From positions 578-64,577 of the forward strand of contig JAZPZG010000081.1 of the NCBI GenBank assembly GCA_045544575.1: a stretch of 64,000 bases of DNA. Direction: 5' to 3'. Origin of the DNA: Clostridia bacterium (GTDB taxonomy: Bacteria; Bacillota; Clostridia; UBA1212). Below are positions 943-58,878 of the stretch, one piece after another. A program made the position numbers and the translations under genes. Under the pieces are notes generated by a model. The model had not been told where the DNA came from, did not search any database, and saw only the letters and a list, made by a program, of their open reading frames with translations. Position 1 is the first letter of the stretch. Each line of letters begins with the position of its first letter.

Positions 943-1824
943 ATGAAAAAGATTATTTCTTTGATCATAGCTGTTGCTATGATCGCAAGTATGGGCATCG
1001 TTTCATCTCTCGCTACTTTCGGTGCTGATATTTCATATGCACAGGTTGAGGGCGAGGACGGCATCGAGGGTGCTTATGAGGTTACTAAGTATTTTGATGC
1101 TTACACAGATGCAACGGGTTCTTCTGTTGTTTGGCTCAGTTCTGCTGACGCTTCTGTTATTCAGCGTATTGAGCTTAAGGTTCCCGCAGACTTCATCCAG
1201 TTTGGTTGCGGTACACATGCAGATCAGCAGTATAAGAATATTCTCAACGTAGCTATCTACGAGGATACAGGCGATTTGTTTGAGTCTGTTGATGGTGAGC
1301 CTATTGCTTCCGGTGAAGCTGAGGTTGCAAACTCTGCTTGGAGAACAGGTATTGAGCTTGAAGAGAGACTCATGCCCGGCGTTTACGTTCTTGAGCTTTC
1401 TACACCTAACTACAATATGAACTTCTGGATTGCTGCTTCTATGTATGCAGAGGGCATGGCTCCCGAAAGTACATACCATGAGGCTGTTACTACGGGTACT
1501 ATCGCAGGCGGTGCGGATCTTGTTAACTGTGCTGTTGCATACAGAACATACCTTGACAAGAGTGTTCCCGTTGAGACAGAGGCTCCTGAGACAGAAGCTC
1601 CCGTTGAAGAGACAGAGGCTCCTGCTGATGAGACAGAAGCTCCTGCTGATGAGACAGAGGCTCCTGCTGAAGAGACAGAGGCTCCTGCTACAACAGCTCC
1701 CACAACAGCTCCTACACAGGTTCCTGCTGAAGAGGAGTCAGGTTGCGGTTCTGTGATTGCTTCCGGTGCTGCTGTTATGGCAGTTATGGCTGCTGCTGTT
1801 GTATTTCTTAAAAAGAGAAAATAA
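943..1824 (+). CDS. Secreted hypothetical surface protein with ETEAP-repeat stalk and C-terminal GCGS/TM/KKRK anchor signal
   Basis: N-terminal signal peptide MKKIISLIIAVAMIASMGIVSSLATFGA. Tandem 8-aa ETEAPADE repeats encoded by 24-nt DNA repeats at about 1573-1700. The C-terminus is ...EEESGCGSVIASGAAVMAVMAAAVVFLKKRK, i.e. GCGS, then a hydrophobic helix, then a basic tail. Confidence 0.6.
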   Translation: MKKIISLIIAVAMIASMGIVSSLATFGADISYAQVEGEDGIEGAYEVTKYFDAYTDATGSSVVWLSSADASVIQRIELKVPADFIQFGCGTHADQQYKNILNVAIYEDTGDLFESVDGEPIASGEAEVANSAWRTGIELEERLMPGVYVLELSTPNYNMNFWIAASMYAEGMAPESTYHEAVTTGTIAGGADLVNCAVAYRTYLDKSVPVETEAPETEAPVEETEAPADETEAPADETEAPAEETEAPATTAPTTAPTQVPAEEESGCGSVIASGAAVMAVMAAAVVFLKKRK

Positions 1825-3744: not shown

Positions 3745-3796
3745 AAAGCGAGCAGGACAGGTAAGTTTATCTTATCTGTCCTGCTCGCTTTTTATT
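3745..3796. terminator. Bidirectional rho-independent terminator (perfect 16-bp stem)
   Basis: AAAGCGAGCAGGACAG...CTGTCCTGCTCGCTTT with T-runs on both strands. It lies between convergent rpmB (+) and the recG stop (-). Confidence 0.75.
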
Positions 3797-6700: not shown

Positions 6701-6863
6701 CTATAACGAAGTCCGCGTTGGTCATTATAAAAAGACGGGAAACCTCGAAAAAATGCATAAGCAGCATATCGCAAAGCAGCATCGAAGAATCAATGCCGTT
6801 TGATTTCAGCTTACCTATGGTGTTTTTTCTAAGTTCCCCTAAAGTGATGTTATCCATAATCAA
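3795..6863 (-). CDS. recG: In-frame fusion of release-factor glutamine N5-methyltransferase PrmC/HemK (N-terminal) to ATP-dependent DNA helicase RecG (C-terminal)
   Basis: Residues about 1-295 carry the PrmC hallmarks: LDLCCGSGCIG (SAM-binding site), the NPPY motif in IVSNPPYIP, and DGG. From about aa 330 the RecG N-terminus LPGIKNARAALFAKLGVQKIRDLLELYPARYED follows, then the wedge domain, helicase motifs GDVGSGKT and DEQHRFG, and the C-terminal TRG region. No stop codon or internal ATG separates the two parts. Confidence 0.85.
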   Translation of the reverse strand: MIMDNITLGELRKNTIGKLKSNGIDSSMLLCDMLLMHFFEVSRLFIMTNADFVIDNTDEAVQEKSAEFTSAVIRLCKGEPIQYILGTADFYGLKFKVTPAVLIPRGDTEILVEELIKTAKEVKKAPKILDLCCGSGCIGISAKHSLSEADVTCSDISHEALSIAMENCKNILGSYDKVNFLCGNFLESVKPGEKFDIIVSNPPYIPTDDIKGLDVNVKDHEPHLALDGGSDGLSAYRIITENAPHCLNDGGVLMYEVGINQARDVAELLEKSGFTDIKIIKDFGNIERVVAGTLKSSSESVNQEPCEEKKTDVIQKKSPLDEDITTLPGIKNARAALFAKLGVQKIRDLLELYPARYEDRSKRTSISELIPNTDATVLVRITSKASRMLRRGLTATFFTGKDSTGSIKITFYNQDYVKRVINVGGDYLFYGRISADGFSGGKQLQLLNPAFTDASDALKVANFERLLPIYPLTKGLTQSVIRDAVTAAIRIEDSLSKVSAEKKAHICEIPLKIRDSYGLIGREAAKRHIHFPSDKKAAEKAHKRIVFDELIELQLMLFHMKSSVEISASSNGIRFSQVDMTDFYGSLPYKLTDGQQKVISDIFSDMESPKIMNRLVIGDVGSGKTIVAVAAMYKAIKNGYQAVYMAPTEILAEQHARNIKKVLEPFGIRVGLLTGALTSANKRKIHDKIAKGEIDCIIGTHALIQKDVRFHKAGIVITDEQHRFGVRQRAMLSELSSVTPDILVMTATPIPRTLALILYGDLDISTLDTLPTGRLPIKTYPATGEMRNRVYNWVAANARSGFQAYIVHPLVEDKEEASEDTSLPGAISAVSNYEKLSRTVFSDITTGLLHGKMKPAEKEAVMRRFAAGEISVLFSTTVIEVGVDVPNATIMVIENAERFGLSQLHQLRGRVGRGAKQSHCTLISDSKAEIAQERIKLLCSTTDGFEISEKDLELRGPGELFGTAQHGLPTFKLANLYDDIDTLKEAQSAAKEIVSTLSSEENNEYEQYYRYVVGKTPELINL

Positions 6864-17800: not shown

Positions 17801-19330
17801 TTGGCTAAAAGCAAAGCAAAAAATGTAAAGAAAAAAGTATCATCCTATGATGATAAGCTTATCAAAATTATCGGAGCTGCACTTGCAGGCGCAGTAGCAC
17901 TGCTTGTTGCCGTTATTTTGGTTGTATCATTCAGTACAAGCTACGTATGCAAGGTTGGCGGCAAGCGCGTTATGACATATGAGTATCGTTTGTTCCTCGG
18001 TTCTGCAATGGAGCAGATGCTCACAGAAGCAGAAGAAGCTCACGAAGGTGAAAAGGATTTCGATGCCAAGGGTTTCTGGACAGCAGAAAAAATTGCCGAA
18101 GCAGAGGAAAAGGCTCTTAATGACGTGTGCGAGTGGAAAGCAAATTACCTTATTGCAAAGAAAGAGGGCTATGGTCTCAGCTGGTCAGAGCGCAATGAAT
18201 ACAAGGCTAACGTAGAAGCGCAGATTCAGTATGCGTACCAGTATCAGATGTATTATACACAGAATTCAAACCTTTCATACAGCGCATTCCTTGAGTCTTA
18301 TCTCAGCGGAATGACTATGGACGAGTATAAGGACTATGCTGTTCAGGACAAGTGCATAAGCGATTTTGTAGCGGCACTTAAGGAAGGTTATACTCCTACC
18401 GATGCACAGCTTGAAGAGAAGTTTAACTCCGATAAGGATGCTTACAGACAGGTCATTCTCTATACGTTCGCTGTTGAAAAGCCCGATGAGCCTAAGAAGG
18501 AACTCGGAGAAGAACCCAAAAAGCCCGATGCAGAAGAGGGAAGCAAGGAATACACTGCTTACGAGGCTGCATTGAAGGAATATGAGAAGCTTAAGAAGGA
18601 ATGGGACGAGTACAACACCGAGCTTGCTGAACTTAAAGAAAAAGTTGAACTCATCTACGAGGGACTTCTTGAGGACGGTACTTATACAGGTAAGGGTATA
18701 AAGGAGCTTGAAGTTAAGGATGAACTTAAGAAAGATTCCGACAAGACCGAGTCTGATAAGAAGAAAACAGAAATCAAGGATTATAAGGATGCTACACTTG
18801 AGGTTCTTGCAGAGACAGAGGGTGACCTCTTTGCCGATACAAAGGGTAAGCACGAGTTTAATAAGAATACCGAGACAGAAGATTTGGTCCTCGATGATTA
18901 CGCATTGTCACTTGATTGGACAGATGAAAACAGAGTTTCCATTAAGACAACCTCTGACAATTCTTCATTTGCTACTGAACTCTTGAAATATGACGAGTCC
19001 AAAGCGTACAAGGACGGCAAGGTTACTACGAAGCTTGTTCTTCTCAGCGACGACACATATTTCTACATTACACAGTGCAGAGGTATTAAGGATCTCGTAA
19101 CCAATGCAGAGCCTTGGGAGACCGATGAAAAGGATAAGGAAGGCAATGTTGTAAAAGAAGACACTTGCGTAAAAGATACCGTTAAGGCTGACGTTCTTAC
19201 AGACATGGCTGAGGCAGAGCTTGAGGGCCTCAGAAAGGGCGAGTACAGCTCAAGTGCTAAAGTAACTGCAAAGAAAGAAAAAATTGTAGATGAAGTTGTT
19301 GAAATGGTTTCATCTGAGTTTAAAGGTTAA
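17801..19330 (+). CDS. Membrane-anchored Lys/Glu-rich protein with SurA-N/PrsA-like N-terminal chaperone domain
   Basis: Basic cytoplasmic N-terminus, one transmembrane helix, then YVCKVGGKRVMTYEYRLFL, which resembles the SurA_N/PrsA opening motif (V..VNG..IT..E). Long charged coiled-coil-like remainder with no PPIase domain. Confidence 0.4.
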   Translation: MAKSKAKNVKKKVSSYDDKLIKIIGAALAGAVALLVAVILVVSFSTSYVCKVGGKRVMTYEYRLFLGSAMEQMLTEAEEAHEGEKDFDAKGFWTAEKIAEAEEKALNDVCEWKANYLIAKKEGYGLSWSERNEYKANVEAQIQYAYQYQMYYTQNSNLSYSAFLESYLSGMTMDEYKDYAVQDKCISDFVAALKEGYTPTDAQLEEKFNSDKDAYRQVILYTFAVEKPDEPKKELGEEPKKPDAEEGSKEYTAYEAALKEYEKLKKEWDEYNTELAELKEKVELIYEGLLEDGTYTGKGIKELEVKDELKKDSDKTESDKKKTEIKDYKDATLEVLAETEGDLFADTKGKHEFNKNTETEDLVLDDYALSLDWTDENRVSIKTTSDNSSFATELLKYDESKAYKDGKVTTKLVLLSDDTYFYITQCRGIKDLVTNAEPWETDEKDKEGNVVKEDTCVKDTVKADVLTDMAEAELEGLRKGEYSSSAKVTAKKEKIVDEVVEMVSSEFKG

Positions 19331-19361: not shown

Positions 19362-19410
19362 AGCGGGGGGGCAGTTGTTGTTAAACTGTCTCCCGCTTTG
19401 TTGTTTTTTG
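19362..19410 (+). terminator. Rho-independent terminator
   Basis: Imperfect stem AGCGGGGGGGCAG...CTGTCTCCCGCT followed by TTGTTGTTTTTTG. Confidence 0.55.
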
Positions 19411-19447: not shown

Positions 19448-19476
19448 TTGACCTTGCGGGCAATTTGTTGTAGAAT
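19448..19476 (+). promoter_or_regulatory. Sigma-A-type promoter (TTGACC, 17-nt spacer, TAGAAT) for the sortase operon
   Basis: -35 at 19448-19453 and -10 at 19471-19476. RBS AGAGGAGG precedes the ATG at 19505. Confidence 0.55.
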
Positions 19477-19504
19477 ATACTTTGACAGAAAGAGGAGGAT
19501 TGCG

Positions 19505-20494
19505 ATGGCACAGTCAAAGAGTTTTTATTATTCAAAAAAGAATACAAAGCCGTTCTGTGTACCGGAACAATATTCCCGTTATGTCAAAAATAACGAAAAA
19601 AGGCAAACGCAGGAACGCCGGATAAAAAAGAATGATAATAAAAAAGATAAGGGCTTTAATACCAATTCTCTTATCCGTGCGATAGCTTTTGTTGTTATGG
19701 CAGTTTCTTTGCTTGTTATTGTTGATCGGAGCAATGATTATTTGCGTGATATCGAATTCAATAAGACAAATAACGAAAAGTTTGAAATAAATTCACAGCC
19801 TAATGAACTCCTTTCAAAGAGAGAGCCGCCCTTATATCCCGTGCTTCCCGAGGGAAACGTGACAAGGCTTGATTATCCGGATATTTTTGATCCGGAAAGT
19901 ATTGCACAGTTCAGCATTGCGTACAAGGATTTTAGATTTTACATCTATATGCCGATGAAGCGCTCTACTATTAAATATCCTGTTTTTCAGTCTGATGACA
20001 ATGAGTATTATTTAAAGAGAAATTACGATGGAGAGCCGAATTTATCGGGAACTCTTTACCTTGATTATCGTAATGATTTTGAAACACTGAGACAGGACGA
20101 TATGTGGGGAACTCTTCACAGAAACAATATTGTATACGGTCATAATATGCAAAACGGTACTATGTTCGGTACTTTGAAGGAATATGCCGACAGAGAGTTT
20201 TTTAACAGCAATAATATGATTTATACTTATTCAGCTACAGAGGTTACTGCCTGGAAGATTTTTTCTGCATACGAAACTACCACTGAAAATTACTACATCG
20301 ATACCACCTTCGGCTCTGAGGCCGAGTACGTTTCATTCTTAAATAAATTAAAAAACGACTCGTTGCACCCGTCTGACGTTGCTCTTGATGCTTCAAGCGA
20401 TATCTTGACTTTATCAACGTGTCATAAATATGACGACCCCCGCGGCAGGTTTGTTATTCATGCGGTAAAGATTGCAAGAGCGCCGCTTGTGTAG
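19505..20494 (+). CDS. srtB: Class B sortase
   Basis: N-terminal transmembrane anchor. NNIVYGHNMQNGTMFGTLKEYADREFF aligns with the S. aureus SrtB His region (NTVIYGHHVGDNTMFDVLEDYL). Catalytic Cys in ILTLSTCH and Arg in RFVIHAVKI. Start placed at MAQSKSF by RBS position. Confidence 0.85.
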   Translation: MAQSKSFYYSKKNTKPFCVPEQYSRYVKNNEKRQTQERRIKKNDNKKDKGFNTNSLIRAIAFVVMAVSLLVIVDRSNDYLRDIEFNKTNNEKFEINSQPNELLSKREPPLYPVLPEGNVTRLDYPDIFDPESIAQFSIAYKDFRFYIYMPMKRSTIKYPVFQSDDNEYYLKRNYDGEPNLSGTLYLDYRNDFETLRQDDMWGTLHRNNIVYGHNMQNGTMFGTLKEYADREFFNSNNMIYTYSATEVTAWKIFSAYETTTENYYIDTTFGSEAEYVSFLNKLKNDSLHPSDVALDASSDILTLSTCHKYDDPRGRFVIHAVKIARAPLV

Positions 20495-20519
20495 GTATTT
20501 AAGCAGGAGATGATTTTTT

Positions 20520-21545
20520 ATGAGGATTATAAAAGACGACAATACCTACGGCTCTTTTTCTCTTTCCAATTTGTTTGTGACGGAGTATCTTACGGGACTT
20601 AGCGGCGATGCCGTAAAGCTGTATATTTACTTTGGTTATTTGCATGAGAACAGAAAAGACACTTCGGAGAGTGCGTTGCTGAATGTTTTGCAGTTTTCAG
20701 CGGAACGGTTAAAAAATGCAGTGTCAGAGCTTACCGAAAGAGAACTTATAGCTTTTGAAAACGGAACCCTTATTCTATCTGACGTAACTGAGCTTAAGCT
20801 TAAAAAAAGATACGGAAGCATTAGTACTTCGGGATGTACGTTAAGCAGTGAAAACAATTCGGAGCTTGATGAGGTCATAAGGACCGTACAATGTGAATAT
20901 TTCGGCGGCAAAATGACTCGCAAGTGGTACGAGCTTATAAGGTCTTTGGGCGCGAAGCTTGATCCGGAGGTTATATTGCTGTTATTTCAGCACTGCGAGC
21001 AGTATTGTGAAAAGCCGTTGAAAAAGGCATACGTAGAAAAGGTTGCCGAGAATTGGCAAGCGGAGAATATTAAGAGCGCCAAGGATCTTCAGGAATATTT
21101 AGACGTACGAGCGAAACTGGGAAGGTTTGTTGATTTTATCCGAAAAAAGATGAATCGAAACGCTCCGTTTATGGACAGCGAGATTTCCGTAATGCGTAAA
21201 TGGCTTCTTGATTATGGTTATGGGGAAGATGAGCTTTCCGTTGTGCTTGATTGGACAAGATTTAACAATCCCACCATAGGCGCTTTTGATAAGCTTATCA
21301 CAACATGGCACGGTTTGGGATTGAAAAATGCTGCGGAGATAAAAGATTATCTTGAAAAAAATAAAAAAACCTCAGGAAGTGACAAAAAGGCGACTTCCGG
21401 TAAAAGCGATAAAACAGGCTTTACAAGTCCTGTCGGTAATTTTACGCAACGTGAATATTCTGATGATTTTTTTACCGCGCTTACTGAGGGAAGACCGTAT
21501 AAGAAAACTGAGGACAATAAGGAAGAATATACGGAGGGTACGTAA
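20520..21545 (+). CDS. DnaD-domain replication initiation/membrane attachment protein (B. subtilis DnaB-like)
   Basis: N-terminal winged-helix DDBH1-like region and two DDBH2-like repeats with YxxxIxxxW-type motifs (KWYELIRSL...; MRKWLLDYGY...ITTWHGLGLK). Confidence 0.6.
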   Translation: MRIIKDDNTYGSFSLSNLFVTEYLTGLSGDAVKLYIYFGYLHENRKDTSESALLNVLQFSAERLKNAVSELTERELIAFENGTLILSDVTELKLKKRYGSISTSGCTLSSENNSELDEVIRTVQCEYFGGKMTRKWYELIRSLGAKLDPEVILLLFQHCEQYCEKPLKKAYVEKVAENWQAENIKSAKDLQEYLDVRAKLGRFVDFIRKKMNRNAPFMDSEISVMRKWLLDYGYGEDELSVVLDWTRFNNPTIGAFDKLITTWHGLGLKNAAEIKDYLEKNKKTSGSDKKATSGKSDKTGFTSPVGNFTQREYSDDFFTALTEGRPYKKTEDNKEEYTEGT

Positions 21546-21548
21546 TTT

Positions 21549-22559
21549 ATGAAAGACAGTATTGACGTTCAAAGAGAGGTCGCATCCGTATTATCGGCCA
21601 GAAGAATTAAGGCGGCGAGCGTTGCCGCAGAAAGATTTTCTGAGGTCTGCGAGAAAATACCGGAATACAGCGATGCGGATGAAGCCGTAAAACGTATAGG
21701 CGTACGCCTCGGCAGACTTGCAATTGAGGGTGGTAAAGGCAGTGAAAAGTATTCATTGATTCAACAGGAGCTTTCGAAAAAGTCAGAGGAGAGAAAGGCG
21801 CTTCTTGTGAGCGGAGGATTTGCCCCTGACTTTTTGGAAAACGTTTATACCTGCCCTTTGTGCAAGGATACGGGAGAAAGAAAGGAAGACGGTTTGCAGA
21901 GCAGTATCTGTAGCTGTTATATGAAGCTTTACACCGAAAAGCTTCAAAAAGAATCAAACGTTGCATCAAACGTTGGCTTTGAAGCGTTCCTTTTAAAGTA
22001 TTACAGCAAGGACACTTCTACCGGAAATGCTTCGCCGTTTGACAAGGCGGCTTTAGCACTTGCAAAAGCAAAGCACTTTGTCGAGACTTTTGGGACAGAT
22101 GATGCAAAAGATATTTTATTTACGGGCGGGCCGGGCGTAGGAAAATCATTTTTGTGCAGTTGTATTGCAAATGAGCTTATGAAAAAAGGTGTTCCCGTGC
22201 TTTATATATCATCTGCAGAATTGTTTGATACTCTTACTTACTATGGTAAGGACGAGGAACGCAACTCGAAACGTGAGCTTCTTGAAAAGATTTCGACAAG
22301 CGTTGATTTGCTTATATTAGACGACCTTGGTGCTGAAAAGCAATCCGCGGCACGTTACGGTATACTGCTTGACGTATTAAACCGCAGGGCCGCAAATAAG
22401 AATAAAAGAACGGTTATCTCTGCCAATCTTTCTCTCCAAAAGCTTAAGAACGTTTACTACGACGAGCGTGTTTTTTCAAGGCTTGTGTCGTTTGAGATTT
22501 GCGAGCTTACGGGTGACGATATCAGGATAATTAAGAAATTTGAAAATGCAGGTGTATGA
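21549..22559 (+). CDS. dnaI: Primosomal helicase loader DnaI/DnaC-like AAA+ ATPase
   Basis: N-terminal Zn-binding Cys cluster (CPLCKDTGER...CSCY), Walker A FTGGPGVGKSF and Walker B LLILDDLGAE. The start is 3 nt after the upstream gene's stop. Confidence 0.75.
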   Translation: MKDSIDVQREVASVLSARRIKAASVAAERFSEVCEKIPEYSDADEAVKRIGVRLGRLAIEGGKGSEKYSLIQQELSKKSEERKALLVSGGFAPDFLENVYTCPLCKDTGERKEDGLQSSICSCYMKLYTEKLQKESNVASNVGFEAFLLKYYSKDTSTGNASPFDKAALALAKAKHFVETFGTDDAKDILFTGGPGVGKSFLCSCIANELMKKGVPVLYISSAELFDTLTYYGKDEERNSKRELLEKISTSVDLLILDDLGAEKQSAARYGILLDVLNRRAANKNKRTVISANLSLQKLKNVYYDERVFSRLVSFEICELTGDDIRIIKKFENAGV

Positions 22560-22562
22560 TTT

Positions 22563-23123
22563 ATGAAAAAAAGTATTTTTTTAGTTTTAATTACTGTTTT
22601 TGTTGCAATAATGGGTTGTGTAAGCATTAATGCGGCAACCGTCAGAATTGACGACGACCCGTGGGATACGGCAGCCGCAAATAACAATATTGCCGCCTTT
22701 GAATGTGTTGCAACAAACGTTGCGGCATACCAGTGGTACATGGTAAAAGCAGGTGATGATCCGTTAAATACCGATTCTCATGTTTTGTTAGAGGACGGCG
22801 CGATTAAAAACGGAGATTTGTCTCTAAACGGTGTAAATTCTTCGATTCTTGTAGTTCCCGCCTTTGAGGAAACCGACGGTTGCTACTTTATATGCAAAGT
22901 AAAAGGAAATGACGGAACCGAGCTTACGTCTCTTGCTGCACAGTTAACTGTAAATTACGGTGGTTCAGGTTCATCAAATAATAACCCCGGTGCGGGAGAC
23001 GGAACGTCTAACGACAATAATACTGTTACACCGGAGAAAAAGGGCTGCGGAAGTGTTGTTTCCGGTTTCTCTGCCGTTGCAGTTCTTTTGTGCACGGCAT
23101 TAATTCTTAAAAGAAAGTCATAA
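22563..23123 (+). CDS. Small secreted protein with C-terminal GCGS/TM/KRKS anchor signal
   Basis: Signal peptide MKKSIFLVLITVFVAIMGCVSINAATV. Gly/Ser/Asn-rich stalk. C-terminus ...PEKKGCGSVVSGFSAVAVLLCTALILKRKS. The start is 3 nt after the dnaI-like stop. Confidence 0.55.
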   Translation: MKKSIFLVLITVFVAIMGCVSINAATVRIDDDPWDTAAANNNIAAFECVATNVAAYQWYMVKAGDDPLNTDSHVLLEDGAIKNGDLSLNGVNSSILVVPAFEETDGCYFICKVKGNDGTELTSLAAQLTVNYGGSGSSNNNPGAGDGTSNDNNTVTPEKKGCGSVVSGFSAVAVLLCTALILKRKS

Positions 23124-23143
23124 AACGTTATAAAAAATAACAG

Positions 23144-23183
23144 ATTCGCCCGCAAAGGAAAATCCTCTGCGGGCGAATTTTAT
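23144..23183. terminator. Bidirectional rho-independent terminator (perfect 11-bp stem)
   Basis: ATTCGCCCGCA...TGCGGGCGAAT with T/A runs on both sides, between convergent genes. Confidence 0.7.
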
Positions 23184-23200
23184 TATACATATTTATTAAT

Positions 23201-24862
23201 TTACACCGTTTTACCTCTGTATATGTACGCAAGGCGGCCAAGCGGTGCACAGTCACCGTCCTCGTAGAATTGGTCAACCTTTTCGTATTCTTTTGTGCTG
23301 TCGGCTGCTTTAAACCAAAACTCAAATGTTTCGCTTTCAGCGGTGTTTATATTGAGAATGGAAAGCGGCAACGTTACGGTAAGCGTATTTCCCTTTATTT
23401 CCATAGGAACACGGGCGATTTCCTTTACGTTATTAAGGTCGTCGCAGGGGCGCTCTGTGGAATTGTCAGCCGGTGCACGGGTGATTGCATAAACACCTGT
23501 GGTATTGTTTTCAAAATCCGGCTTCTTGTTTATTACAAAGTCAAATCCGGGTGCCGCTCCGTTTGAAACGTAGATGCTCATGAAGCTTCCGCGGCTGTCC
23601 TTTACGATATCTTTCTTTGCGGTGATTGTAAAGGTGACGGTTTCTTTTGTATGGCTGACGGAAATACTTTTAATGGCATTGCGCTGTGTATAGTTCGTGT
23701 AACGGTCTATCTGTCCCATGGCATCGCGCGGAATATCTCCGTCGCTGAAGTTTTCATATACCTCCGTTTTTTCGCATGGATTTGTTTCACAAGGCAGAGA
23801 ACCTTTGTACCTGCGGACGTAAGAGACCATTTGCATATAGTAGTTGTCAAAGTATCCGCCGCGCATCATTTCAACGTCTCTGCTGTATTCGTGATTTGCA
23901 CAATCAACAAACATTATAGGTCTGTTTTCGGGTCCGGGCCATCTGCCTGCTATCCATTCGTTCCAGCCTGTGATAAGCATTATCGGAGGGGCTGTTTCAA
24001 GTGCACGTTCAAATTGTTCTGCAAAATTGTAGCCGTGGATATAGGCGTTCGGAGAAGGGTCGTTTGCACCGTTGTGAAAGGCTCTGCCGCAGTTTCTTGT
24101 CTCGCCGTAGAGAACGCTGTCTCCGAATCTCTCCTGCGGGTGCTGGGCAACGGACACGTTTATTACCTCGGGCTTTCCGTTAAGGTCTGCAAAGACACGC
24201 TGAGGTCTTACAAAATCCATCCACGGCCAACCACCGAGCTTGTCGGGCTCATTGGGCCACTGTGACATCTTGATATTAAAGAAGTTTCCGGTTTCCTCCG
24301 AGCATTCTTCCTTTACGGCAATGATTACGGGCTTGCCGTCCAATAAGAACCACGTATCTTCGCAGAACCGAGGTTTATAAATATTGTCGTATATTTCCTG
24401 TACGGTTTCACCTGAACGTGTATTCGTGTAGAACATGACCTTGGGGATATCAAATCCGTCGTCATGATACTCCTGTAATACTTTCATTACGATTTCAACT
24501 TTGTCTTTATATATAAGAGCATTCGTGGTGTCAAAGAAAAGAAAGTCAATGCCGGCTTCCGTGATAAGCTTCATGTGCTTTCTTACGACCCATTCGTCTC
24601 CCTGCGAGTAGTAGCCGTAAAACGGTTCTCCCCAAAAGTGATATTCACCTACACCGCCCCATACGTCAGAGTCAGGCTTGTAGCCTGCTTCGGGATCTTT
24701 AGCGGTTATTTCCGAGACGTTGTAGATTTTGCGGTTGTTATTTTCAAGCCACAGAAAGTAAAAAAGCCCTGTCAGTCTGTCTGAACGCAAGGTTGATGCT
24801 CTCTCGGGGGAAGGAATCTTTCGCCCAAGTGAGTCGATTGCAATAAGCGGTCTGTTTTTCAT
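23201..24862 (-). CDS. Putative cytoplasmic glycoside-hydrolase-like TIM-barrel protein (family uncertain)
   Basis: 553 aa with no signal peptide and an aromatic-rich composition (YHFWGEPFYGYY, ITGWNEWIAGRW) typical of carbohydrate-active enzymes. No definite family motif recognised. Confidence 0.3.
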   Translation of the reverse strand: MKNRPLIAIDSLGRKIPSPERASTLRSDRLTGLFYFLWLENNNRKIYNVSEITAKDPEAGYKPDSDVWGGVGEYHFWGEPFYGYYSQGDEWVVRKHMKLITEAGIDFLFFDTTNALIYKDKVEIVMKVLQEYHDDGFDIPKVMFYTNTRSGETVQEIYDNIYKPRFCEDTWFLLDGKPVIIAVKEECSEETGNFFNIKMSQWPNEPDKLGGWPWMDFVRPQRVFADLNGKPEVINVSVAQHPQERFGDSVLYGETRNCGRAFHNGANDPSPNAYIHGYNFAEQFERALETAPPIMLITGWNEWIAGRWPGPENRPIMFVDCANHEYSRDVEMMRGGYFDNYYMQMVSYVRRYKGSLPCETNPCEKTEVYENFSDGDIPRDAMGQIDRYTNYTQRNAIKSISVSHTKETVTFTITAKKDIVKDSRGSFMSIYVSNGAAPGFDFVINKKPDFENNTTGVYAITRAPADNSTERPCDDLNNVKEIARVPMEIKGNTLTVTLPLSILNINTAESETFEFWFKAADSTKEYEKVDQFYEDGDCAPLGRLAYIYRGKTV

Positions 24863-28407: not shown

Positions 28408-30756
28408 ATGAAATGTAAACTGATTGCATGTGATATGGACGGGACATTACTTGACTCGAACCACGTCATTTCGCAAAAAAACATTGATGCCGTAAAACGA
28501 TGCAGCGAAAAAGGAATTAAGTTTGTGCTTTGTACGGGAAGACCCGTTCAGGCGATTGAGTCGTTTCGGGCAGAGCTTGGCCTTAATACACCTGTTATAG
28601 CATATAACGGAAGCAAGATAGTTGATCCCGAAAGCAACGAGGATCTTTATTGTGAGTGTCTGTCTGAAGAAAACGTGGAAAAAATACTGGCTCTTGCAGA
28701 AGAAAACGAGTCTGTCGTAACTGTCTGGGCAGATGATAAGCTATACATTAATAAAACCACCACGGCATCGAAGCTTTATGCAAAGCTTGCAAATGAAACT
28801 CCTGTGGCGTTCGATTTAGCAGACAGGGAGCTTTTTAGAGGAAAGAAGATCAATAAGATTCTATGGATACAAACCGCTGAGGAAGCAGCGCGATTGCTTC
28901 CCTCTTTAAAAAGTGCGCTTCCTTCGGATGTAAGCTGCTTTACCTCGAATCCGGAATATATTGAATTTGTAAACTCGAAGGTATCAAAGGGCAGGGCACT
29001 TTCTATGCTTTGTAAAAAGCTTGGAATAGACGTGAATGAGACGGTTGCGATAGGTGACGGTGAGAACGACATTGATTTGCTAAAAACTGCGGGCATGGGT
29101 ATTGCCGTGGCGAATGCATCAGATAACGTAAAAAAAGCGGCGGATAAGATTACTTCGTCAAATGACGAGAACGGTGTTGCGAGAGTAATTTACGCAATAA
29201 CGAAATCAAAGAAAAAGTCAGTTGATTCAAAGCCTGCACTTACAAGAAAGCAACGAGAAAAACTAAATGCGGAAATTCGCGCAAAAAGAAGGCGCAAAAA
29301 GGCTGAATATATTGATATAAAGGGTATTTTTAAACCATCTGTTATAATAATGTCGGTGCTTATAATGGTTTTATCGTTTGTTGCACTGAAGCTTATCGTA
29401 GACGGTATTGCTTTGCGTAACAATAAGTCTGCACTTACAGGTGACAGTATCTTGGGTGAAAGCAATTATAACGCAGGGAATACGGACTTTGAGGTAAAGG
29501 ACATAAAAGAAATATCACAGGGCCTCGCCACTCTTAAGTCTACGCACACCGAATGGACAAACTTTGCAGACGACCCCCAACAAAACGGCTTCTTTTGCAT
29601 TGCAACAGGCAGTGCAGATAAAAGATTGGTATATAATCTTGATCCGAAAAACATTTGTAATATGGGATATTCCTTGTCGGATTTTAAGTACATTTGGGTT
29701 GACTCCGTGAACACGGGCTTTTATGCCGTTATTAATATTCCGGGAGAAGTCGTTGACCTAACGGATTATTATATTTTGGTGCACAATGACACCGGAAATC
29801 TTGCATCAAGACTTATTATTAATTGCTATGAGGCTCGTGTCGTAAAATTAAAGAATACGATTTTAACAGGCACGTTGCTTGCTCCCGATGCAACGGTTGA
29901 ATACGACGGAACATCGGTGTACGGACAGGTTTATGCCAATGCGTATACGGGCACTCGTTCATTTTATAAAGATATTCCTTTCGGAGGATATTCCATTGTG
30001 ATTGAGGAAATCGGAGCAGTGGATTTTATGAACGTTGCAATACGAGCTAACGTATTAAAGTGGCTTAAGGAAAATTATCCCGAGATCTATGCGGGTCATT
30101 CGGATGATTACAGACTTAACACCGTAGATCTTACCTATGTTACGGAATTGATTCTGGATGACGTTATGATTGCCGATTTGGGTGATGACTTAAAGTATTT
30201 CAAGAACCTTAAAAAGCTTTCCGTTAAAAGAACGAAGATGACATCCCTTGACGTAAGCTTCATAAGTGAGCTTGAGGAGCTGGATATTTCGGAAACTGAA
30301 ATTTCGGAGGTTACCTTTGCAAAAAATAATTCTCTTAAGGTATTAAAAGCAGACAGAACAAAGCTTGCAGAGCTTGATATGTCTCTGCTTGAAGGCCTTA
30401 AAGAACTAAGCATTTCGGAAAATAACTTTACCGTGATGCCCGACGTATACAGTCTTGTAAACCTTACCGTGCTCAACGTAAGTAAAAATAAGTGTATAAC
30501 CTCTTTTGAGTTCAGCTCTCTTGCAAAATTGGAGAAGCTCAATATAAGTGAGTGTTCTCTGACTGAGCTTAATTTAAACGGAGCTAAGGCGCTTAAAGAA
30601 CTTCATTGCAGCTATAATTCCATACGTGAGCTTGACCTTACACCTGCAGGCTCCTTGACGTACTGTGAGGCATACGGTACTTCTTTTAAGAGCATTAATG
30701 CGGCAGGTATGAACGTAAGGGTTTCGTGCCATGAAAATGCAACCGTGATAAAATAA
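28408..30756 (+). CDS. Cof-type HAD-IIB phosphatase fused via a TM segment to a C-terminal leucine-rich-repeat (LRR) domain
   Basis: aa 1-265: HAD motif I DMDGTLLD, Cof-type cap, and motif III GDGENDIDLL. aa 270-330: basic linker (RKQREKLNAEIRAKRRRKK) and transmembrane helix IIMSVLIMVLSFVALKLIV. aa 560-782: at least eight LRRs (LKKLSVKRTKMTSLDVSFISELEELDISETEISEV...LKELHCSYNSIRELDL). Confidence 0.7.
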   Translation: MKCKLIACDMDGTLLDSNHVISQKNIDAVKRCSEKGIKFVLCTGRPVQAIESFRAELGLNTPVIAYNGSKIVDPESNEDLYCECLSEENVEKILALAEENESVVTVWADDKLYINKTTTASKLYAKLANETPVAFDLADRELFRGKKINKILWIQTAEEAARLLPSLKSALPSDVSCFTSNPEYIEFVNSKVSKGRALSMLCKKLGIDVNETVAIGDGENDIDLLKTAGMGIAVANASDNVKKAADKITSSNDENGVARVIYAITKSKKKSVDSKPALTRKQREKLNAEIRAKRRRKKAEYIDIKGIFKPSVIIMSVLIMVLSFVALKLIVDGIALRNNKSALTGDSILGESNYNAGNTDFEVKDIKEISQGLATLKSTHTEWTNFADDPQQNGFFCIATGSADKRLVYNLDPKNICNMGYSLSDFKYIWVDSVNTGFYAVINIPGEVVDLTDYYILVHNDTGNLASRLIINCYEARVVKLKNTILTGTLLAPDATVEYDGTSVYGQVYANAYTGTRSFYKDIPFGGYSIVIEEIGAVDFMNVAIRANVLKWLKENYPEIYAGHSDDYRLNTVDLTYVTELILDDVMIADLGDDLKYFKNLKKLSVKRTKMTSLDVSFISELEELDISETEISEVTFAKNNSLKVLKADRTKLAELDMSLLEGLKELSISENNFTVMPDVYSLVNLTVLNVSKNKCITSFEFSSLAKLEKLNISECSLTELNLNGAKALKELHCSYNSIRELDLTPAGSLTYCEAYGTSFKSINAAGMNVRVSCHENATVIK

Positions 30757-36309: not shown

Positions 36310-37743
36310 ATGAGTTCACAAAAATCAAAAACAAAAGAGCTTTTTACAATCTGCAGTGATTTCTTCAAAAGCAGAAAGGCAGAGTGCTTTGTATGCTTTG
36401 CATGCCTTTGTGTGCTTTTCGGAATGTATTTTTCATGGAAAGCGGAGCAAACGGGTATTTCACGTGAATCTGCGCGAGCATCATTGTGGGTAACATTGCT
36501 GTTTGCTGCCTTGGGTGTGATTTTTGTTTTTAAATGGTTTGCAGATTTCAGGACCGCGGCAAAAGGCGGGGCTTGTAAGGCAAGTGCCGTAGGAAATATT
36601 GAAAAGAGTGACCGAACCGTTGCTTTGACAATATTTTTTACGTGTATCCTGGTAAACGTACTTTTGCTGTTCTTTCAATGTGCTCTGGGATATATTATCG
36701 GGGCATATGGCTCACTTTCAGACGGTTTGTCACGCTTTAATCAGCTTGACAGTGATCAGTATCGTTTTATAGCCGAAGGCTGGTATACAAATAGCGGTGA
36801 TCCCACAACCGACCTTAGGTTGGTTTTCTTTCCCGGTTATCCGATATTGATCCGCATTGCGTACTTTTTTATACGTGATTACATGATGGCGGCTTTGACG
36901 GTATCGCATCTGTGTATGGCGGGAGCGGGCAGCTTTATGTACCTTCTTGTCAGACTTGACTATGATAAAGACACTGCGCTTCGTGCGGTGAAATTTATGT
37001 ATTTGGTTCCTGCCGGATTATTCTTTATAACACCGATGAGTGAATCTGTTTTCTTGTTTGTTACTCTTGCTGCATTGTATTTTTCACGCAGAGGAAATAT
37101 GCTTCCCGCTGTGTGCTTTGGATTCTATGCTGCCTTTACGCGTTCCTTGGGGGTCATCGTAATGGTTCCGATGGTATACGAGCTTATAAAGAAAACTCTT
37201 GAAGAAAGGCCCGTGACAAGAAAAGACCGGGTAAAAAGGGCAGGGGATTTTGCATTGACGTTGGTAGTTCCGGCGGGCCTTGCAAGTTATTTTTTGATTA
37301 ACAAGCTCGTTACGGGCGATGCGTTTAAGTTTATGGAATACCAGAAGGAGCATTGGTATCAGGAGATAGACTACTTTTTCAACACTGCAAGCTATCAGAT
37401 GGCAAATTTTGTCAACAAGATGGATAATGACAGCATACAGGTAGGTTTTGCCCTGTGGGGAATGGGTCTTTGTGCACTCTTCGGTACGCTTATAATGTTT
37501 ATTATTTCGGCAAAGCGTATGCGTGCTTCCTATATAGGGTATTCAATTGTTTACTACGTTATGGCAATGGGTGCGACGTGGCTGCTGAGTGCCCCGAGAT
37601 ATGCCGCTGCAATGTTTACTCTTCCTGTTTCTTTTGCGTTGATTACCAAGAATAAGAAAGTTGACACTGCTGTGACGATTTTACTTACAGCGATATACGT
37701 TATATACACAATAATGTTTGTAAATCGCTGGCAGGTTTGGTGA
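36310..37743 (+). CDS. Polytopic membrane protein, GT-C-like glycosyltransferase candidate
   Basis: At least ten hydrophobic helices, 477 aa. It occupies the position where mutL normally follows mutS. Confidence 0.35.
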   Translation: MSSQKSKTKELFTICSDFFKSRKAECFVCFACLCVLFGMYFSWKAEQTGISRESARASLWVTLLFAALGVIFVFKWFADFRTAAKGGACKASAVGNIEKSDRTVALTIFFTCILVNVLLLFFQCALGYIIGAYGSLSDGLSRFNQLDSDQYRFIAEGWYTNSGDPTTDLRLVFFPGYPILIRIAYFFIRDYMMAALTVSHLCMAGAGSFMYLLVRLDYDKDTALRAVKFMYLVPAGLFFITPMSESVFLFVTLAALYFSRRGNMLPAVCFGFYAAFTRSLGVIVMVPMVYELIKKTLEERPVTRKDRVKRAGDFALTLVVPAGLASYFLINKLVTGDAFKFMEYQKEHWYQEIDYFFNTASYQMANFVNKMDNDSIQVGFALWGMGLCALFGTLIMFIISAKRMRASYIGYSIVYYVMAMGATWLLSAPRYAAAMFTLPVSFALITKNKKVDTAVTILLTAIYVIYTIMFVNRWQVW

Positions 37744-37785
37744 TTTTCGGATTGTTTCAATGATGTATCATAGGAGGGCTTGATT

Positions 37786-57978: not shown

Positions 57979-58878
57979 TTAATTAGTTTTCTTTTTTGTA
58001 AAAAGAATAACGGCAACTAAAAGTATGGCAGAGAGACTTCCCGTTACGGCACTGCCGCAACCTGAGTTTTTGCTTCCGTCTGTTTTTTCAGTGCTGCTAG
58101 GGGCGTCCTTCGTAGGAGAGGGAGAAGCATCTTCTGTGGGGGCTTCCGTAGTGTTTGTCGGAAGCTCAACGGAAGTTCCCGGAGCAAGACGGAGCACCAA
58201 GGGGCAGCCGTTTTCGGCAACTTTTTTAATGCTTATTGAGGTAGCACCGGAATAGCCGGAAGCTGAAATATCAATTTTTCCTTCACTGTCGGTTGTAAAT
58301 TCCTTTTCTGAATTACCGTCACTTAATATAACCGTCATTCCTATGACAGGATTTTCCTTAACGATAGGGGTAAAATCCTCTGCGTAAGTAGTGTCGGAGC
58401 TGATAAAAGAAATGATACCTTCCTTTATATTATCGGTGTTAATTACAGGGAACTGCATTCCGATTCCGAAGGGGTCACCGTAGTAAAACAATACTTCATC
58501 GCCGTTGTTTAACGTACAGCCGCTCATGCCGGCAACAGGGCTTGTTTCGTTTATCATAAACAGCCAACCGTCCCAACCGCCGAAGCAACCTGCGGCATCA
58601 CCGTTAATGTCGGTTATGTAGTCGTCTGTAGCTCCCGTAACGGTTACGTCATCGTTAGCCTCGTCAAAAGCAACGATGGCTTCTTGGAGGGTGAGCGTTC
58701 CGTCCTCTGTGGGGAGGGTAACATTGTCACAAAAAATTGTCTCGTTTATTCCTTCAATTCTCAGTGAGAACGTAACCGTATCATTACTTTCTGCAGACAC
58801 GGGGAGAGTAAAAAAGGTGCAAAAAGTGCACAAAAACAAAACCGCAGCTGCGGCTTTGCCTAAAATAGTTTTTTTCAT
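57979..58878 (-). CDS. Secreted DUF4430-like protein with TEAP/Ser-rich stalk and C-terminal GCGS/TM/KKK anchor signal
   Basis: Signal peptide MKKTILGKAAAAVLFLCTFCTFFTLPVSA. DUF4430-like core (GGWDGWLFMINE...GDEVLFYYG). C-terminus ...GSKNSGCGSAVTGSLSAILLVAVILFTKKKTN. Confidence 0.6.
   Translation of the reverse strand: MKKTILGKAAAAVLFLCTFCTFFTLPVSAESNDTVTFSLRIEGINETIFCDNVTLPTEDGTLTLQEAIVAFDEANDDVTVTGATDDYITDINGDAAGCFGGWDGWLFMINETSPVAGMSGCTLNNGDEVLFYYGDPFGIGMQFPVINTDNIKEGIISFISSDTTYAEDFTPIVKENPVIGMTVILSDGNSEKEFTTDSEGKIDISASGYSGATSISIKKVAENGCPLVLRLAPGTSVELPTNTTEAPTEDASPSPTKDAPSSTEKTDGSKNSGCGSAVTGSLSAILLVAVILFTKKKTN

What the first reader, a model, noticed from the sequence alone, without database searches (positions are those of the whole stretch)
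19448..23123. Tightly coupled gene string: class B sortase, DnaD-domain protein, DnaI-like loader, GCGS-tail secreted protein
A strong promoter at 19448-19476 precedes a class B sortase, whose TLSTC and YGHN motifs are convincing. The following three genes are separated by 26, 3 and 3 nt, and a perfect bidirectional terminator lies at 23144-23183. This implies that a sortase, two replication-initiation proteins of the B. subtilis DnaB/DnaI type, and a small secreted protein carrying the GCGS C-terminal signal are co-transcribed. No canonical SrtB substrate (NPQTN, NPKTG or SPKTG motif) is present nearby. The GCGS-tail protein is the only candidate substrate in the operon, which raises the possibility that this sortase, or an unlinked enzyme, recognises the new motif. 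Co-transcription of dnaB/dnaI-type genes with envelope proteins is also unusual.
Basis: partly seen in the sequence, partly recalled or inferred. Interest (0 to 1): 0.7.

Follow-up and report, generated by a model that had tools for sequence, protein, structure and literature searches.

The report
Conserved sortase B–DnaD–DnaI operon
In a group of uncultured gut and rumen Clostridia, a cell-surface anchoring enzyme (class B sortase) always sits in one tightly packed operon with the two proteins that load the replicative helicase; the fourth gene here is a lineage-specific passenger whose Cys-containing 'GCGS' tail is a widespread, apparently undescribed sorting signal that the sortase probably does not process.

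Summary
The gene string is real. It comprises a class B sortase (19505-20494), a DnaD/DnaB-type co-loader (20520-21545), a DnaI/DnaC-type loader (21549-22559) and a 186-aa secreted protein with a GCGS + TM + KRKS tail (22563-23123). The gaps are 25, 3 and 3 nt, and the string lies between a promoter-like site and a strong bidirectional terminator.

The sortase-dnaD-dnaI triad is conserved. All 24 other loci of this sortase clade that extend far enough carry it, with differing flanking genes. None of 83 other class B sortase loci carries it. The cassette-linked sortases form an exclusive clade.

The GCGS gene does not belong to that conserved unit. It occurs only in the window and one close relative, and is absent from a relative (L090) that shares both flanks.

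The idea that this sortase cleaves GCGS is not supported:
- GCGS tails lack the Pro and Thr of sortase signals and fail the LPXTG-anchor model.
- They coexist with PPKTG tails in one genome.
- In one locus a GCGS gene lies next to a divergent Lgt-like gene and a CPBP protease gene.

About 100 of the 150 best-scoring protein clusters end in G-C-[GA]-S + TM + KKK. No curated model or paper describes this tail.

No mechanistic link between the sortase and replication was shown.

The parts
19366..19394 (+). Terminator hairpin of the upstream 509-aa gene (17801-19330). It marks the 5' boundary of the unit.
   Evidence: z -3
19448..19476 (+). Sigma-70-like promoter TTGACC-17-TAGAAT
   Evidence: 10 of 12 matches; consensus match only
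19505..20494 (+). Class B sortase, 329 aa. Layout: cytoplasmic N-terminus with a basic stretch, a TM helix (about residues 53-80), a disordered linker with invariant P109/Y111/P112/Y124/P125, then the catalytic domain with H213 (YGHN), C306 (TLSTC) and R315.
20520..21545 (+). DnaD/DnaB-type helicase co-loader, 341 aa. It has an N-terminal winged-helix-like region, a DDBH2 domain (PF07261, residues 126-193, YVEKVAENW), a second degenerate DDBH2 and a C-terminal NFxQRxY motif.
21549..22559 (+). DnaI/DnaC-type AAA+ helicase loader, 336 aa. It has a Cys cluster (CPLCKDTG...CSC), a Walker A motif (GPGVGKS) and a Walker B motif (LLILDDLG).
   Evidence: (NF005304, 245 bits against cutoff 215)
22563..23123 (+). 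Secreted 186-aa protein with an N-terminal signal peptide and a C-terminal tripartite tail: GCGS (23043-23054), a hydrophobic helix, then KRKS. It is a lineage-specific passenger at the 3' end of the operon.
23142..23180 (.). Bidirectional intrinsic terminator shared with the convergent GH99-like gene 23201-24862
943..1824 (+). Second GCGS-tail protein of the window (EESGCGS + TM + KKRK). It was the query that revealed the GCGS-tail family.
57979..58878 (-). Third GCGS-tail protein (DUF4430 domain). Its homologs elsewhere carry [SNVA]P[KQ]TG[DE] sortase signals or dockerins at the same position.

Best explanation
The region is a chromosomal housekeeping operon of an uncultured cellulosome-type Clostridium (Oscillospiraceae-like).

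Proposed working:
- One transcript starts at the promoter near 19448-19476 and ends at the hairpin at 23142-23180 (inferred).
- It encodes a membrane-anchored class B sortase, then the DnaD/DnaB-type co-loader and the DnaI/DnaC-type loader. The last two are the equivalent of B. subtilis dnaB-dnaI and C. difficile CD3653-CD3654.
- The three genes were inherited together as a cassette throughout one monophyletic sortase subfamily (shown).

The most likely meaning of the linkage is shared, growth-linked expression of two unrelated housekeeping functions, not a shared biochemical pathway (inferred). The sortase probably anchors PxTG-type surface proteins encoded elsewhere in the genome (inferred).

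The fourth gene is a recent addition, translationally coupled to dnaI in the window's lineage only (shown). Its GCGS tail belongs to a large, separate family of Cys-containing C-terminal sorting signals (shown). By analogy with MYXO-CTERM and Synerg-CTERM, and on the lead from one locus, that signal is probably handled in two steps: lipid attachment to the invariant Cys by an Lgt-type enzyme, then removal of the TM tail by a CPBP (Rce1-like) intramembrane protease encoded elsewhere. The sortase is probably not involved (inferred).
For: Gene identities.

Chromosomal context: relA, dtd, recJ, recG and mutS are nearby and no phage genes are seen. The DnaC-like protein scores 245 bits on the bacterial equivalog against 131 bits on the best phage family.

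Conservation of the triad:
- It is present in L001-L003 and in L081-L087.
- It is present in 14 of 14 informative metagenome loci.
- Gene junctions range from a 4-11 nt overlap to an 18 nt gap, with two larger gaps after the sortase gene (102 nt in L083; larger in L093).
- Flanking genes differ between lineages.
- It is absent from 77 + 6 other class B sortase loci.
- The cassette-linked sortases form an exclusive clade in an NJ tree of 87 catalytic domains.
- DnaD, DnaC and sortase identities to the window fall in parallel (about 30%, 31-36% and 33-47%), which fits vertical co-inheritance.

The fourth gene is variable:
- rho in 9 loci;
- GCGS-tail gene only in the window and L081;
- none in L090, which has the same flanks;
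- an EPNTG anchor that passes TIGR01167 in L083.

The GCGS tail is a family of its own. Of the 150 best hits, 100 end in G-C-x-x + TM + a basic tail, with Gly and Cys invariant and the Cys 24-30 residues from the C-terminus. It fails TIGR01167 and every NCBIfam model.

Separate pathways:
- A GCGS gene lies next to a PPKTG-tail gene in L113.
- A GCGS gene lies next to a divergent Lgt-like gene tightly coupled to a CPBP protease gene in L112. The best NCBIfam hits of that protease are MrtJ, Mrt_core, MrtS and MrtP.

Precedent: Cys-containing CTERM signals are processed by CPBP proteases (10.1101/2023.06.07.544157; PMC11980579).
Against: - No transcript data exist. Several 9/12 promoter-like matches lie inside the sortase gene, so dnaD-dnaI could also have their own start.
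- Deep conservation of the triad despite turnover of both flanks is stronger than expected for accidental neighbours. It may hide a functional link.
- No PxTG substrate is visible in the 64-kb window.
- The window and L081 sortases alone share a 9-10 aa insertion before the catalytic His strand, plus W146Y, F185Y and H236N. This coincides with presence of the GCGS gene, but it is a single evolutionary event.
- The Lgt-like/CPBP adjacency is one locus out of eight GCGS loci examined. Neither gene is present in the window.
Confidence: 0.6

Rival explanations
1. The sortase of this lineage has been retooled to recognise the GCGS tail, and the fourth gene is its operon-encoded substrate.
For: - The GCGS gene is translationally coupled to the cassette in the window and L081.
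- The window has three GCGS tails and no PxTG tail in 64 kb.
- Homologs of the DUF4430 GCGS protein carry PxTG[DE] sortase signals at exactly this position. GCGS has therefore replaced a sortase signal.
- Only the window and L081 sortases carry a 9-10 aa insertion next to the His strand and three substitutions at otherwise conserved positions.
Against: - GCGS lacks the Pro and Thr on which every characterised sortase class depends (established knowledge).
- GCGS tails fail the LPXTG-anchor model, whereas L083's post-cassette gene passes it.
- The cassette persists without any GCGS gene in 22 other loci, including L090 with the same flanks.
- About 1.3 Mb around 110 class B sortases holds no other GCGS tail.
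- GCGS and PPKTG tails are adjacent in L113.
- An Lgt-like/CPBP pair lies next to a GCGS gene in L112.
- The same loop has insertions in other sub-lineages (P0029, P0038), so it is an indel hot spot.
Confidence: 0.07
2. The sortase and the helicase loaders are functionally coupled. For example, the membrane-embedded sortase, through its cytoplasmic N-terminus or TM helix, could tether the DnaB-type 'membrane attachment' co-loader to the envelope, or could couple replication initiation to envelope growth.
For: - The triad is invariably linked and tightly spaced across a deeply diverged clade, although the flanks turn over.
- The clade-specific N-terminal region includes a conserved cytoplasmic motif F-x-Y-S-x-x-N-x-x-x-F-x-x-P-x-x-Y in many members.
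- B. subtilis DnaB is historically a membrane-attachment protein (established knowledge; Pfam name of PF07261).
Against: - There is no direct evidence.
- The N-terminal motif is missing in several cassette-bearing members (L084, L085, L086).
- The catalytic triad is fully retained, so the protein looks like a working extracellular transpeptidase.
- Mixed-function housekeeping operons are common in Firmicutes.
- No paper was found that links the two.
Confidence: 0.1
3. The DnaD/DnaC pair, and perhaps the whole string, is a remnant of a prophage or integrative element replication module rather than the chromosomal loader pair.
For: DnaD-like and DnaC-like loaders are common in Firmicutes phages. 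Both proteins hit PHROG loader families. C. difficile has extra phage and transposon copies (PMC5204125).
Against: - There are no integrase, structural or other phage genes in the window or in any of the related loci.
- The neighbours are housekeeping genes.
- The loader passes the curated cutoff of the bacterial equivalog NF005304.
- The three genes diverge in parallel across lineages.
- GC content and context are unremarkable.
Confidence: 0.04

Closest known systems
Class B sortases of Firmicutes (B. anthracis SrtB 2oqw/1rz2, C. difficile SrtB 4ux7/5gyj, C. perfringens SrtB 5b23, S. aureus SrtB 1ng5)
   Same: The catalytic domain has the same fold (Foldseek TM 0.76-0.90, 29-39% identity). 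The His-Cys-Arg triad is present. The protein passes TIGR03064 and is membrane-anchored at its N-terminus.
   Different: It has a roughly 125-residue clade-specific N-terminal part: a cytoplasmic motif, a basic stretch, a TM helix and a linker with invariant PxYP and YP. It is always followed by dnaD-dnaI rather than by substrate or iron-uptake genes. No substrate gene is next to it in most loci. The window's lineage has an extra 9-10 aa loop before the His strand.
B. subtilis dnaB-dnaI operon and C. difficile CD3653-CD3654
   Same: An adjacent, co-oriented DDBH-type co-loader and an AAA+ DnaI/DnaC-type loader. The co-loader has the DnaB-like multi-DDBH2 layout with a YxxxVxxxW motif. The loader has an N-terminal Cys cluster and Walker A/B motifs.
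   Different: A sortase gene precedes the pair in the same operon. The sequences are very diverged: the co-loader has no PDB sequence match, and the loader scores only 30-60 bits against solved DnaC and DnaI.
Cys-containing C-terminal sorting signals MYXO-CTERM, Synerg-CTERM, JDVT-CTERM and CGP-CTERM, with their CPBP 'myxosortases' (Haft 2023 preprint; Guo, Haft and Wall 2025)
   Same: The tail is tripartite: a short Gly/Ser-rich motif with an invariant Cys directly abutting a TM helix, then a basic cluster. There are weak sub-threshold hits to Synerg-CTERM and to MYXO-CTERM proteins. One GCGS gene lies next to a CPBP protease whose best NCBIfam hits are MrtJ, Mrt_core and MrtS.
   Different: The host is a monoderm Clostridium, with no outer membrane or T2SS. 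The basic cluster is Lys-rich (KKK[DK]) rather than Arg-rich. No existing HMM reaches its cutoff. A divergent Lgt-like gene is coupled to the protease in the one informative locus. The processing enzyme has not been demonstrated.
LPXTG/NPXTG/(S/P)PXTG sortase signals (TIGR01167, TIGR03063, NF033846 Rumino_NPXTG)
   Same: It occupies the same position and has the same overall architecture. It is interchangeable with PxTG tails among homologous surface proteins.
   Different: It has no Pro and no Thr, and has an invariant Gly-Cys instead. It fails the models.

Membership tests
Class B sortase (TIGR03064 / MEROPS C60B) | Score at or above the curated cutoff of the class B equivalog model | tested here: met
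   154.8 bits against cutoff 153.75. This is marginal, and only profile positions 70-235 are matched.
Class B sortase (TIGR03064 / MEROPS C60B) | Sortase beta-barrel fold closest to solved class B enzymes | tested here: met
   AF2 model with pLDDT 77. The top 19 Foldseek PDB hits are all class B (E 5e-20 to 9e-13), while other classes score E >= 4e-8. All 15 PDB sequence hits (E <= 0.001) are class B sortases.
Class B sortase (TIGR03064 / MEROPS C60B) | Catalytic His-Cys-Arg triad | tested here: met
   H213 (YGHN), C306 (TLSTC) and R315 are invariant in 23 homologs.
Class B sortase (TIGR03064 / MEROPS C60B) | Cognate substrate with an NP(Q/K)TN or (S/N/P)PxTG signal | tested here: inconclusive
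   There is none in the 64-kb window. In L083 an EPNTG anchor gene follows the cassette. The rest of the genome is not available.
Class B sortase (TIGR03064 / MEROPS C60B) | Transpeptidase activity on the signal | not testable with these tools
   Requires an enzyme assay.
DnaD/DnaB (DDBH) helicase co-loader | DDBH2 (PF07261 DnaB_2) domain with a YxxxIxxxW motif | tested here: met
   PF07261 at 58.9 bits, residues 126-193. YVEKVAENW is conserved as YxxxVxxxW in 7 orthologs.
DnaD/DnaB (DDBH) helicase co-loader | DnaB-type DDBH1-DDBH2-DDBH2 architecture | tested here: inconclusive
   The second DDBH2 rests only on a weak internal repeat (E 0.001) and a conserved Trp. WHD_DnaB is only a faint hit in ortholog L084. 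There is no PDB sequence match.
DnaD/DnaB (DDBH) helicase co-loader | Adjacent to the AAA+ loader gene, as in dnaB-dnaI and CD3653-CD3654 | tested here: met
   3-nt gap; literature.
DnaI/DnaC helicase loader (NF005304 PRK06835) | Score above the curated cutoff over the full length | tested here: met
   245.1 bits against 215, residues 8-333.
DnaI/DnaC helicase loader (NF005304 PRK06835) | AAA+ Walker A/B motifs and an N-terminal Cys (zinc) cluster | tested here: met
   GPGVGKS, LLILDDLG and CPLCKDTG...CSC are conserved in 7 orthologs. The best PDB hits are DnaC and DnaI.
DnaI/DnaC helicase loader (NF005304 PRK06835) | Loads the replicative helicase; sole chromosomal copy | not testable with these tools
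   Needs the whole genome and biochemistry.
LPXTG-type sortase sorting signal (TIGR01167) | Pro-x-Thr-Gly-type motif and a model score above cutoff, tested for the GCGS tail | tested here: not met
   One tail scores 13.1 against 15.9 and the other three get no hit. Control tails pass: L083 at 21.4 and DUF4430 homologs at 19.8 and 33.2.
Cys-containing CTERM sorting signals (MYXO-/Synerg-/JDVT-/CGP-CTERM type) | Tripartite tail with an invariant Cys in the signature motif | tested here: met
   Gly and Cys are invariant in 100 of 100 tails. The TM segment is about 19 residues and the tail ends in K/R-rich KKK[DK].
Cys-containing CTERM sorting signals (MYXO-/Synerg-/JDVT-/CGP-CTERM type) | Match to one of the existing curated models | tested here: not met
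   The best hits are Synerg-CTERM at 12.9 against 22.5 and a MYXO-CTERM protein at 17.5 against 500. It is therefore not a member of any described family.
Cys-containing CTERM sorting signals (MYXO-/Synerg-/JDVT-/CGP-CTERM type) | Cognate CPBP (Rce1-like) protease that co-occurs with the signal | tested here: inconclusive
   One of eight GCGS loci (L112) has an Lgt-like + CPBP pair next door. There is none in the window. Phylogenetic profiling was not possible.

The most novel reading that the evidence does not exclude
A monophyletic subfamily of class B sortases is obligately co-operonic with the DnaB-type co-loader and the DnaI-type loader because the membrane-anchored sortase, through its clade-specific cytoplasmic and TM region, physically or regulatorily couples helicase loading to the cell envelope. 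This would be a molecular form of the long-postulated 'membrane attachment' of Gram-positive replication initiation.
Probability: 0.1. Interest if true: 0.8.

Novelty: new variant of a known kind. Interest (0 to 1): 0.5.

Why it matters
Two things come out of this region.

First, an envelope transpeptidase has a stable, clade-wide operon link to the essential helicase-loading pair. I could not find this described. At the least it defines a recognisable sortase subfamily and a marker operon for a group of uncultured gut and rumen Clostridia. If the link is functional, it bears on how Firmicutes tie replication initiation to the membrane.

Second, the GCGS tail is not a curiosity of one gene. 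It is a large family of Cys-containing C-terminal sorting signals in monoderm bacteria. It swaps with sortase signals and dockerins on homologous surface proteins, and no curated model covers it. The lead to a divergent Lgt-like/CPBP pair makes its processing directly testable. If confirmed, it would extend the 'myxosortase' principle (Cys modification followed by intramembrane cleavage) from diderm bacteria and archaea (the hosts of MYXO-, Synerg-, JDVT- and CGP-CTERM) to Clostridia, including cellulosome-bearing species.

Tried and rejected
- NCBIfam scans of the full GCGS proteins and of the isolated tails at E <= 10 gave no family at cutoff.
- A word-based homolog search with the 186-aa protein found only the protein itself.
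- A single-sequence AF2 model of the 186-aa protein was unusable (pLDDT 39). Its apparent Ig-like signature (Y-x-C...L-T-V) therefore remains an impression from sequence alone.
- A search for a CPBP protease in the window by the EExxxR motif and by tblastn with the L112 Lgt-like and CPBP proteins found nothing.
- A scan for DnaA boxes near the operon found none, and the window-wide count is at chance.
- No structured element lies in the 25-nt sortase-dnaD gap (z 0.2).
- Literature searches for sortase + DnaD/DnaI and for GCGS as a sorting motif found nothing relevant.
- Cluster look-ups gave no source names or taxonomy for GCGS proteins or for the L112 enzymes.
- The window's own sortase and the ortholog P0243 are not indexed, so no more of this genome could be reached.
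- A comparison of the window's 943-1824 protein with L083's post-cassette protein showed only weak domain-level similarity (E 5e-4). It was not used as evidence.
- The prophage-module explanation was rejected for lack of any phage genes.

Full report
**1. What is in the sequence**

Four co-oriented ORFs lie between 19448 and 23123.

The first ORF is listed mechanically from TTG 19448. That TTG is the -35 hexamer of the promoter-like site TTGACC-17-TAGAAT at 19448-19476 (10/12 matches). The plausible start is ATG 19505, behind the RBS aagaggagga. The gaps between genes are 25, 3 and 3 nt, and each downstream start has its own GGAG-type RBS.

A hairpin at 19366-19394 ends the upstream gene. A 16-17-bp G+C-rich hairpin at 23142-23180 is flanked by U-runs on both strands. 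It folds at -28.5 and -31.1 kcal/mol (z about -7) and is shared with the convergent gene 23201-24862.

Inside the string there is no strong terminator and no promoter match of 10/12 or better. The overall counts of such consensus sites are at chance level, so co-transcription is likely but unproven.

**2. Gene identities**

*Gene 1: class B sortase.*
- It scores 154.8 bits on TIGR03064, just over the 153.75 cutoff.
- All 15 PDB sequence hits (E <= 0.001) are SrtB enzymes.
- An AF2 model (pLDDT 77) matches 19 class B structures first (TM 0.76-0.90). Other classes follow only at E >= 4e-8.
- His213, Cys306 and Arg315 are invariant in 23 homologs.
- Its first ~125 residues are clade-specific: a cytoplasmic motif in many members, a Lys-rich stretch, a TM helix and a disordered linker with invariant PxYP and YP.

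*Gene 2: DnaD/DnaB-type co-loader.* It carries a DnaB_2/DDBH2 domain with YVEKVAENW, a weaker second DDBH2-like repeat and a conserved C-terminal NFxQRxY motif. This is the DnaB-like layout described for C. difficile CD3653 (PMC5204125).

*Gene 3: DnaI/DnaC-type loader.* It passes the curated cutoff of NF005304/PRK06835 over its full length (245 against 215 bits). It has a Cys cluster and Walker A/B motifs. Its best solved relatives are E. coli DnaC and Geobacillus and Bacillus DnaI.

*Context.* The surrounding genes are chromosomal housekeeping genes (recG, recJ, relA, dtd, mutS and others). No phage genes are present. A cohesin/dockerin ORF at the window start suggests a cellulosome-type Oscillospiraceae-like organism.

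**3. Conservation of the gene order**

Homologs that cover the whole sortase, including its N-terminal part, come from Clostridia, Oscillospiraceae and Ruminococcaceae MAGs.

Every in-clade locus with enough sequence has sortase -> DnaB_2 protein -> IstB/DnaC-like protein. Junctions range from a 4-11 nt overlap to an 18 nt gap, with two larger gaps after the sortase gene (102 nt in L083; larger in L093). These loci are:
- L081-L087;
- GTDB loci L001-L003;
- 14 of 14 informative loci from a metagenome scan made with a clade-specific sortase segment.

Two further loci simply end at the sortase. HMMs built from seven ortholog pairs find no DnaD or DnaC next to the other 77 GTDB class B sortases, nor next to 6 out-of-clade metagenome sortases. 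In an NJ tree of 87 catalytic domains, the ten cassette-linked sortases form an exclusive clade.

The flanking genes differ between lineages: ABC transporters, EF-P or capsule genes upstream; rho, GH28 or others downstream. The three proteins diverge in parallel, to about 30-47% identity. The triad is therefore an inherited, selected unit and not an accident of this genome.

I found no paper that mentions it.

**4. The fourth gene**

The fourth gene is not part of the conserved unit.
- rho follows dnaI in nine loci.
- L084 has a GH28 gene there, and L087 an N-anchored protein.
- L083 has a protein whose tail (EPNTG + TM + KKKRVF) passes the LPXTG-anchor model.
- Only the window and its closest relative L081 (66% sortase identity) have the GCGS-tail gene, again 3 nt after dnaI.
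- L090 has the same upstream 509-aa gene and the same convergent GH99-like gene, but goes straight from dnaI to a terminator.

The GCGS gene is thus a gain in the window/L081 lineage or a loss in L090. Either way it is dispensable for the cassette.

**5. What the GCGS tail is**

The window holds three proteins ending in GCGS + TM + a basic cluster (943-1824, 22563-23123 and 57979-58878), and no PxTG-type tail.

An exhaustive phmmer search with 943-1824 shows that the tail is a family. Among the 150 best cluster representatives, 100 end in [EK][EK][GS]-G-C-[GA]-S-[VIA]-[IV]-G-G + about 19 hydrophobic residues + KKK[DK]. Gly and Cys are invariant, and the Cys lies 24-30 residues from the end.

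No NCBIfam model reaches its cutoff on these tails. No source names the proteins, and I found no paper.

Homologs of the DUF4430 GCGS protein carry [SNVA]P[KQ]TG[DE] sortase signals (57 of 120) or dockerins at the same position. GCGS is therefore a functional alternative to sortase anchoring.

**6. Does the sortase process GCGS?**

*Evidence against:*
- The motif lacks Pro and Thr.
- The cassette exists widely without GCGS genes.
- About 1.3 Mb around 110 class B sortases contains no other GCGS tail, while many conventional SrtB loci have PxTG genes next door.
- In L113 a GCGS gene sits beside a PPKTG-tail gene. In L088 a GCGS gene sits beside two genes with a third tail type. Distinct signals therefore coexist in one genome.
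- In L112 the GCGS gene is followed by a divergent Lgt-family gene (118 bits against cutoff 334). That gene is tightly coupled to a canonical CPBP protease (EEAAFR, FGVIH, HAVYD) whose best NCBIfam hits are MrtJ, Mrt_core, MrtS and MrtP.

The L112 arrangement is what the published model for Cys-containing CTERM signals predicts: modification of the Cys, then CPBP cleavage. It is nevertheless one locus out of eight examined.

*Evidence for:* the operon position, the absence of PxTG tails in the window, and a 9-10 aa insertion plus three substitutions found only in the window and L081 sortases. Those changes represent a single evolutionary event in a loop that also varies elsewhere.

I put this rival at about 7%.

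**7. Interpretation and verdict**

The best-supported reading (about 0.6) is a conserved housekeeping operon that co-expresses a sortase with the helicase co-loader and loader pair, without a shown mechanistic link. A lineage-specific surface protein is appended to it. The tail of that protein belongs to a separate, undescribed Cys-type sorting system, probably served by unlinked enzymes.

A true functional coupling between the sortase and the loaders cannot be excluded (about 0.1). It would be the most interesting outcome.

The components are known kinds. The conserved linkage and the GCGS tail family are new variants.

Noticed in passing
window 943-1824, 22563-23123, 57979-58878; P0243-P0390: The GCGS tail is a large family. 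Of the 150 best representative clusters, 100 end in G-C-[GA]-[SG] + TM + KKK[DK], with invariant Gly-Cys. No curated model, source name or paper was found for it.
   Followed up: partly
L112 9594-12966: A GCGS-tail gene is followed by a terminator. Next comes a divergent Lgt-family gene (below all Lgt cutoffs), coupled by a 1-nt gap to a CPBP/Rce1-like protease gene whose best NCBIfam hits are myxosortase-type families. This pair is a candidate processing system for GCGS tails, seen in one locus only.
   Followed up: partly
L088 11009-13931; P0244: A third tail type occurs: ...[ED]T[AS]DN | TAIVFMIAAAA... | KKR[AS][FY]. It hits no sortase or CTERM model (best is Loki-CTERM at 11-12 bits). It occurs next to a GCGS gene and replaces GCGS in an ortholog of window 943-1824.
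   Followed up: no
L113 3-3093: A gene with a canonical PPKTGD + TM + KKREF sortase signal lies directly upstream of a GCGS-tail gene. Both signal types are therefore used in one organism.
   Followed up: partly
window 16-738 and 943-1824: A cohesin + PT-linker + dockerin ORF, cut by the window start, is followed by a GCGS-tail surface protein. This may be a cellulosome component anchored through the GCGS tail.
   Followed up: no
window 19505-20494, residues about 193-203: The window and L081 sortases alone carry a 9-10 aa insertion (RQDDMWGTLHR) before the catalytic His strand, plus W146Y, F185Y and H236N. The close relative L090, which has no GCGS gene, lacks them.
   Followed up: partly
L002, L085, L086, L091, L098, L100, L102, L103, L104: rho is the commonest gene directly after the sortase-dnaD-dnaI cassette. 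This may be the ancestral arrangement.
   Followed up: no
window 3795-6863 (-): A single 1022-aa ORF combines PrmC-like methyltransferase domains (PrmC_N, MTS) with a complete RecG helicase. It is either a gene fusion or two genes without an intervening stop.
   Followed up: no
window 28408-30756: One 782-aa ORF joins a HAD-type Hydrolase_3 domain to a pAdhesive_15/LRR region. In relative L081 these are two separate genes (268 and 525 aa).
   Followed up: no
window 36310-37743 and 37780-39204: Two adjacent polytopic membrane proteins of about 475 aa have no Pfam hit. They look like GT-C-type glycosyltransferases, but that is an impression only.
   Followed up: no
P0170, P0181, P0199 (homologs of window 57979-58878): Some DUF4430 homologs have a sortase motif immediately followed by Cys-Asp-Cys (SPKTGCDC, IPSTGCDC) before the TM helix.
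   Followed up: no
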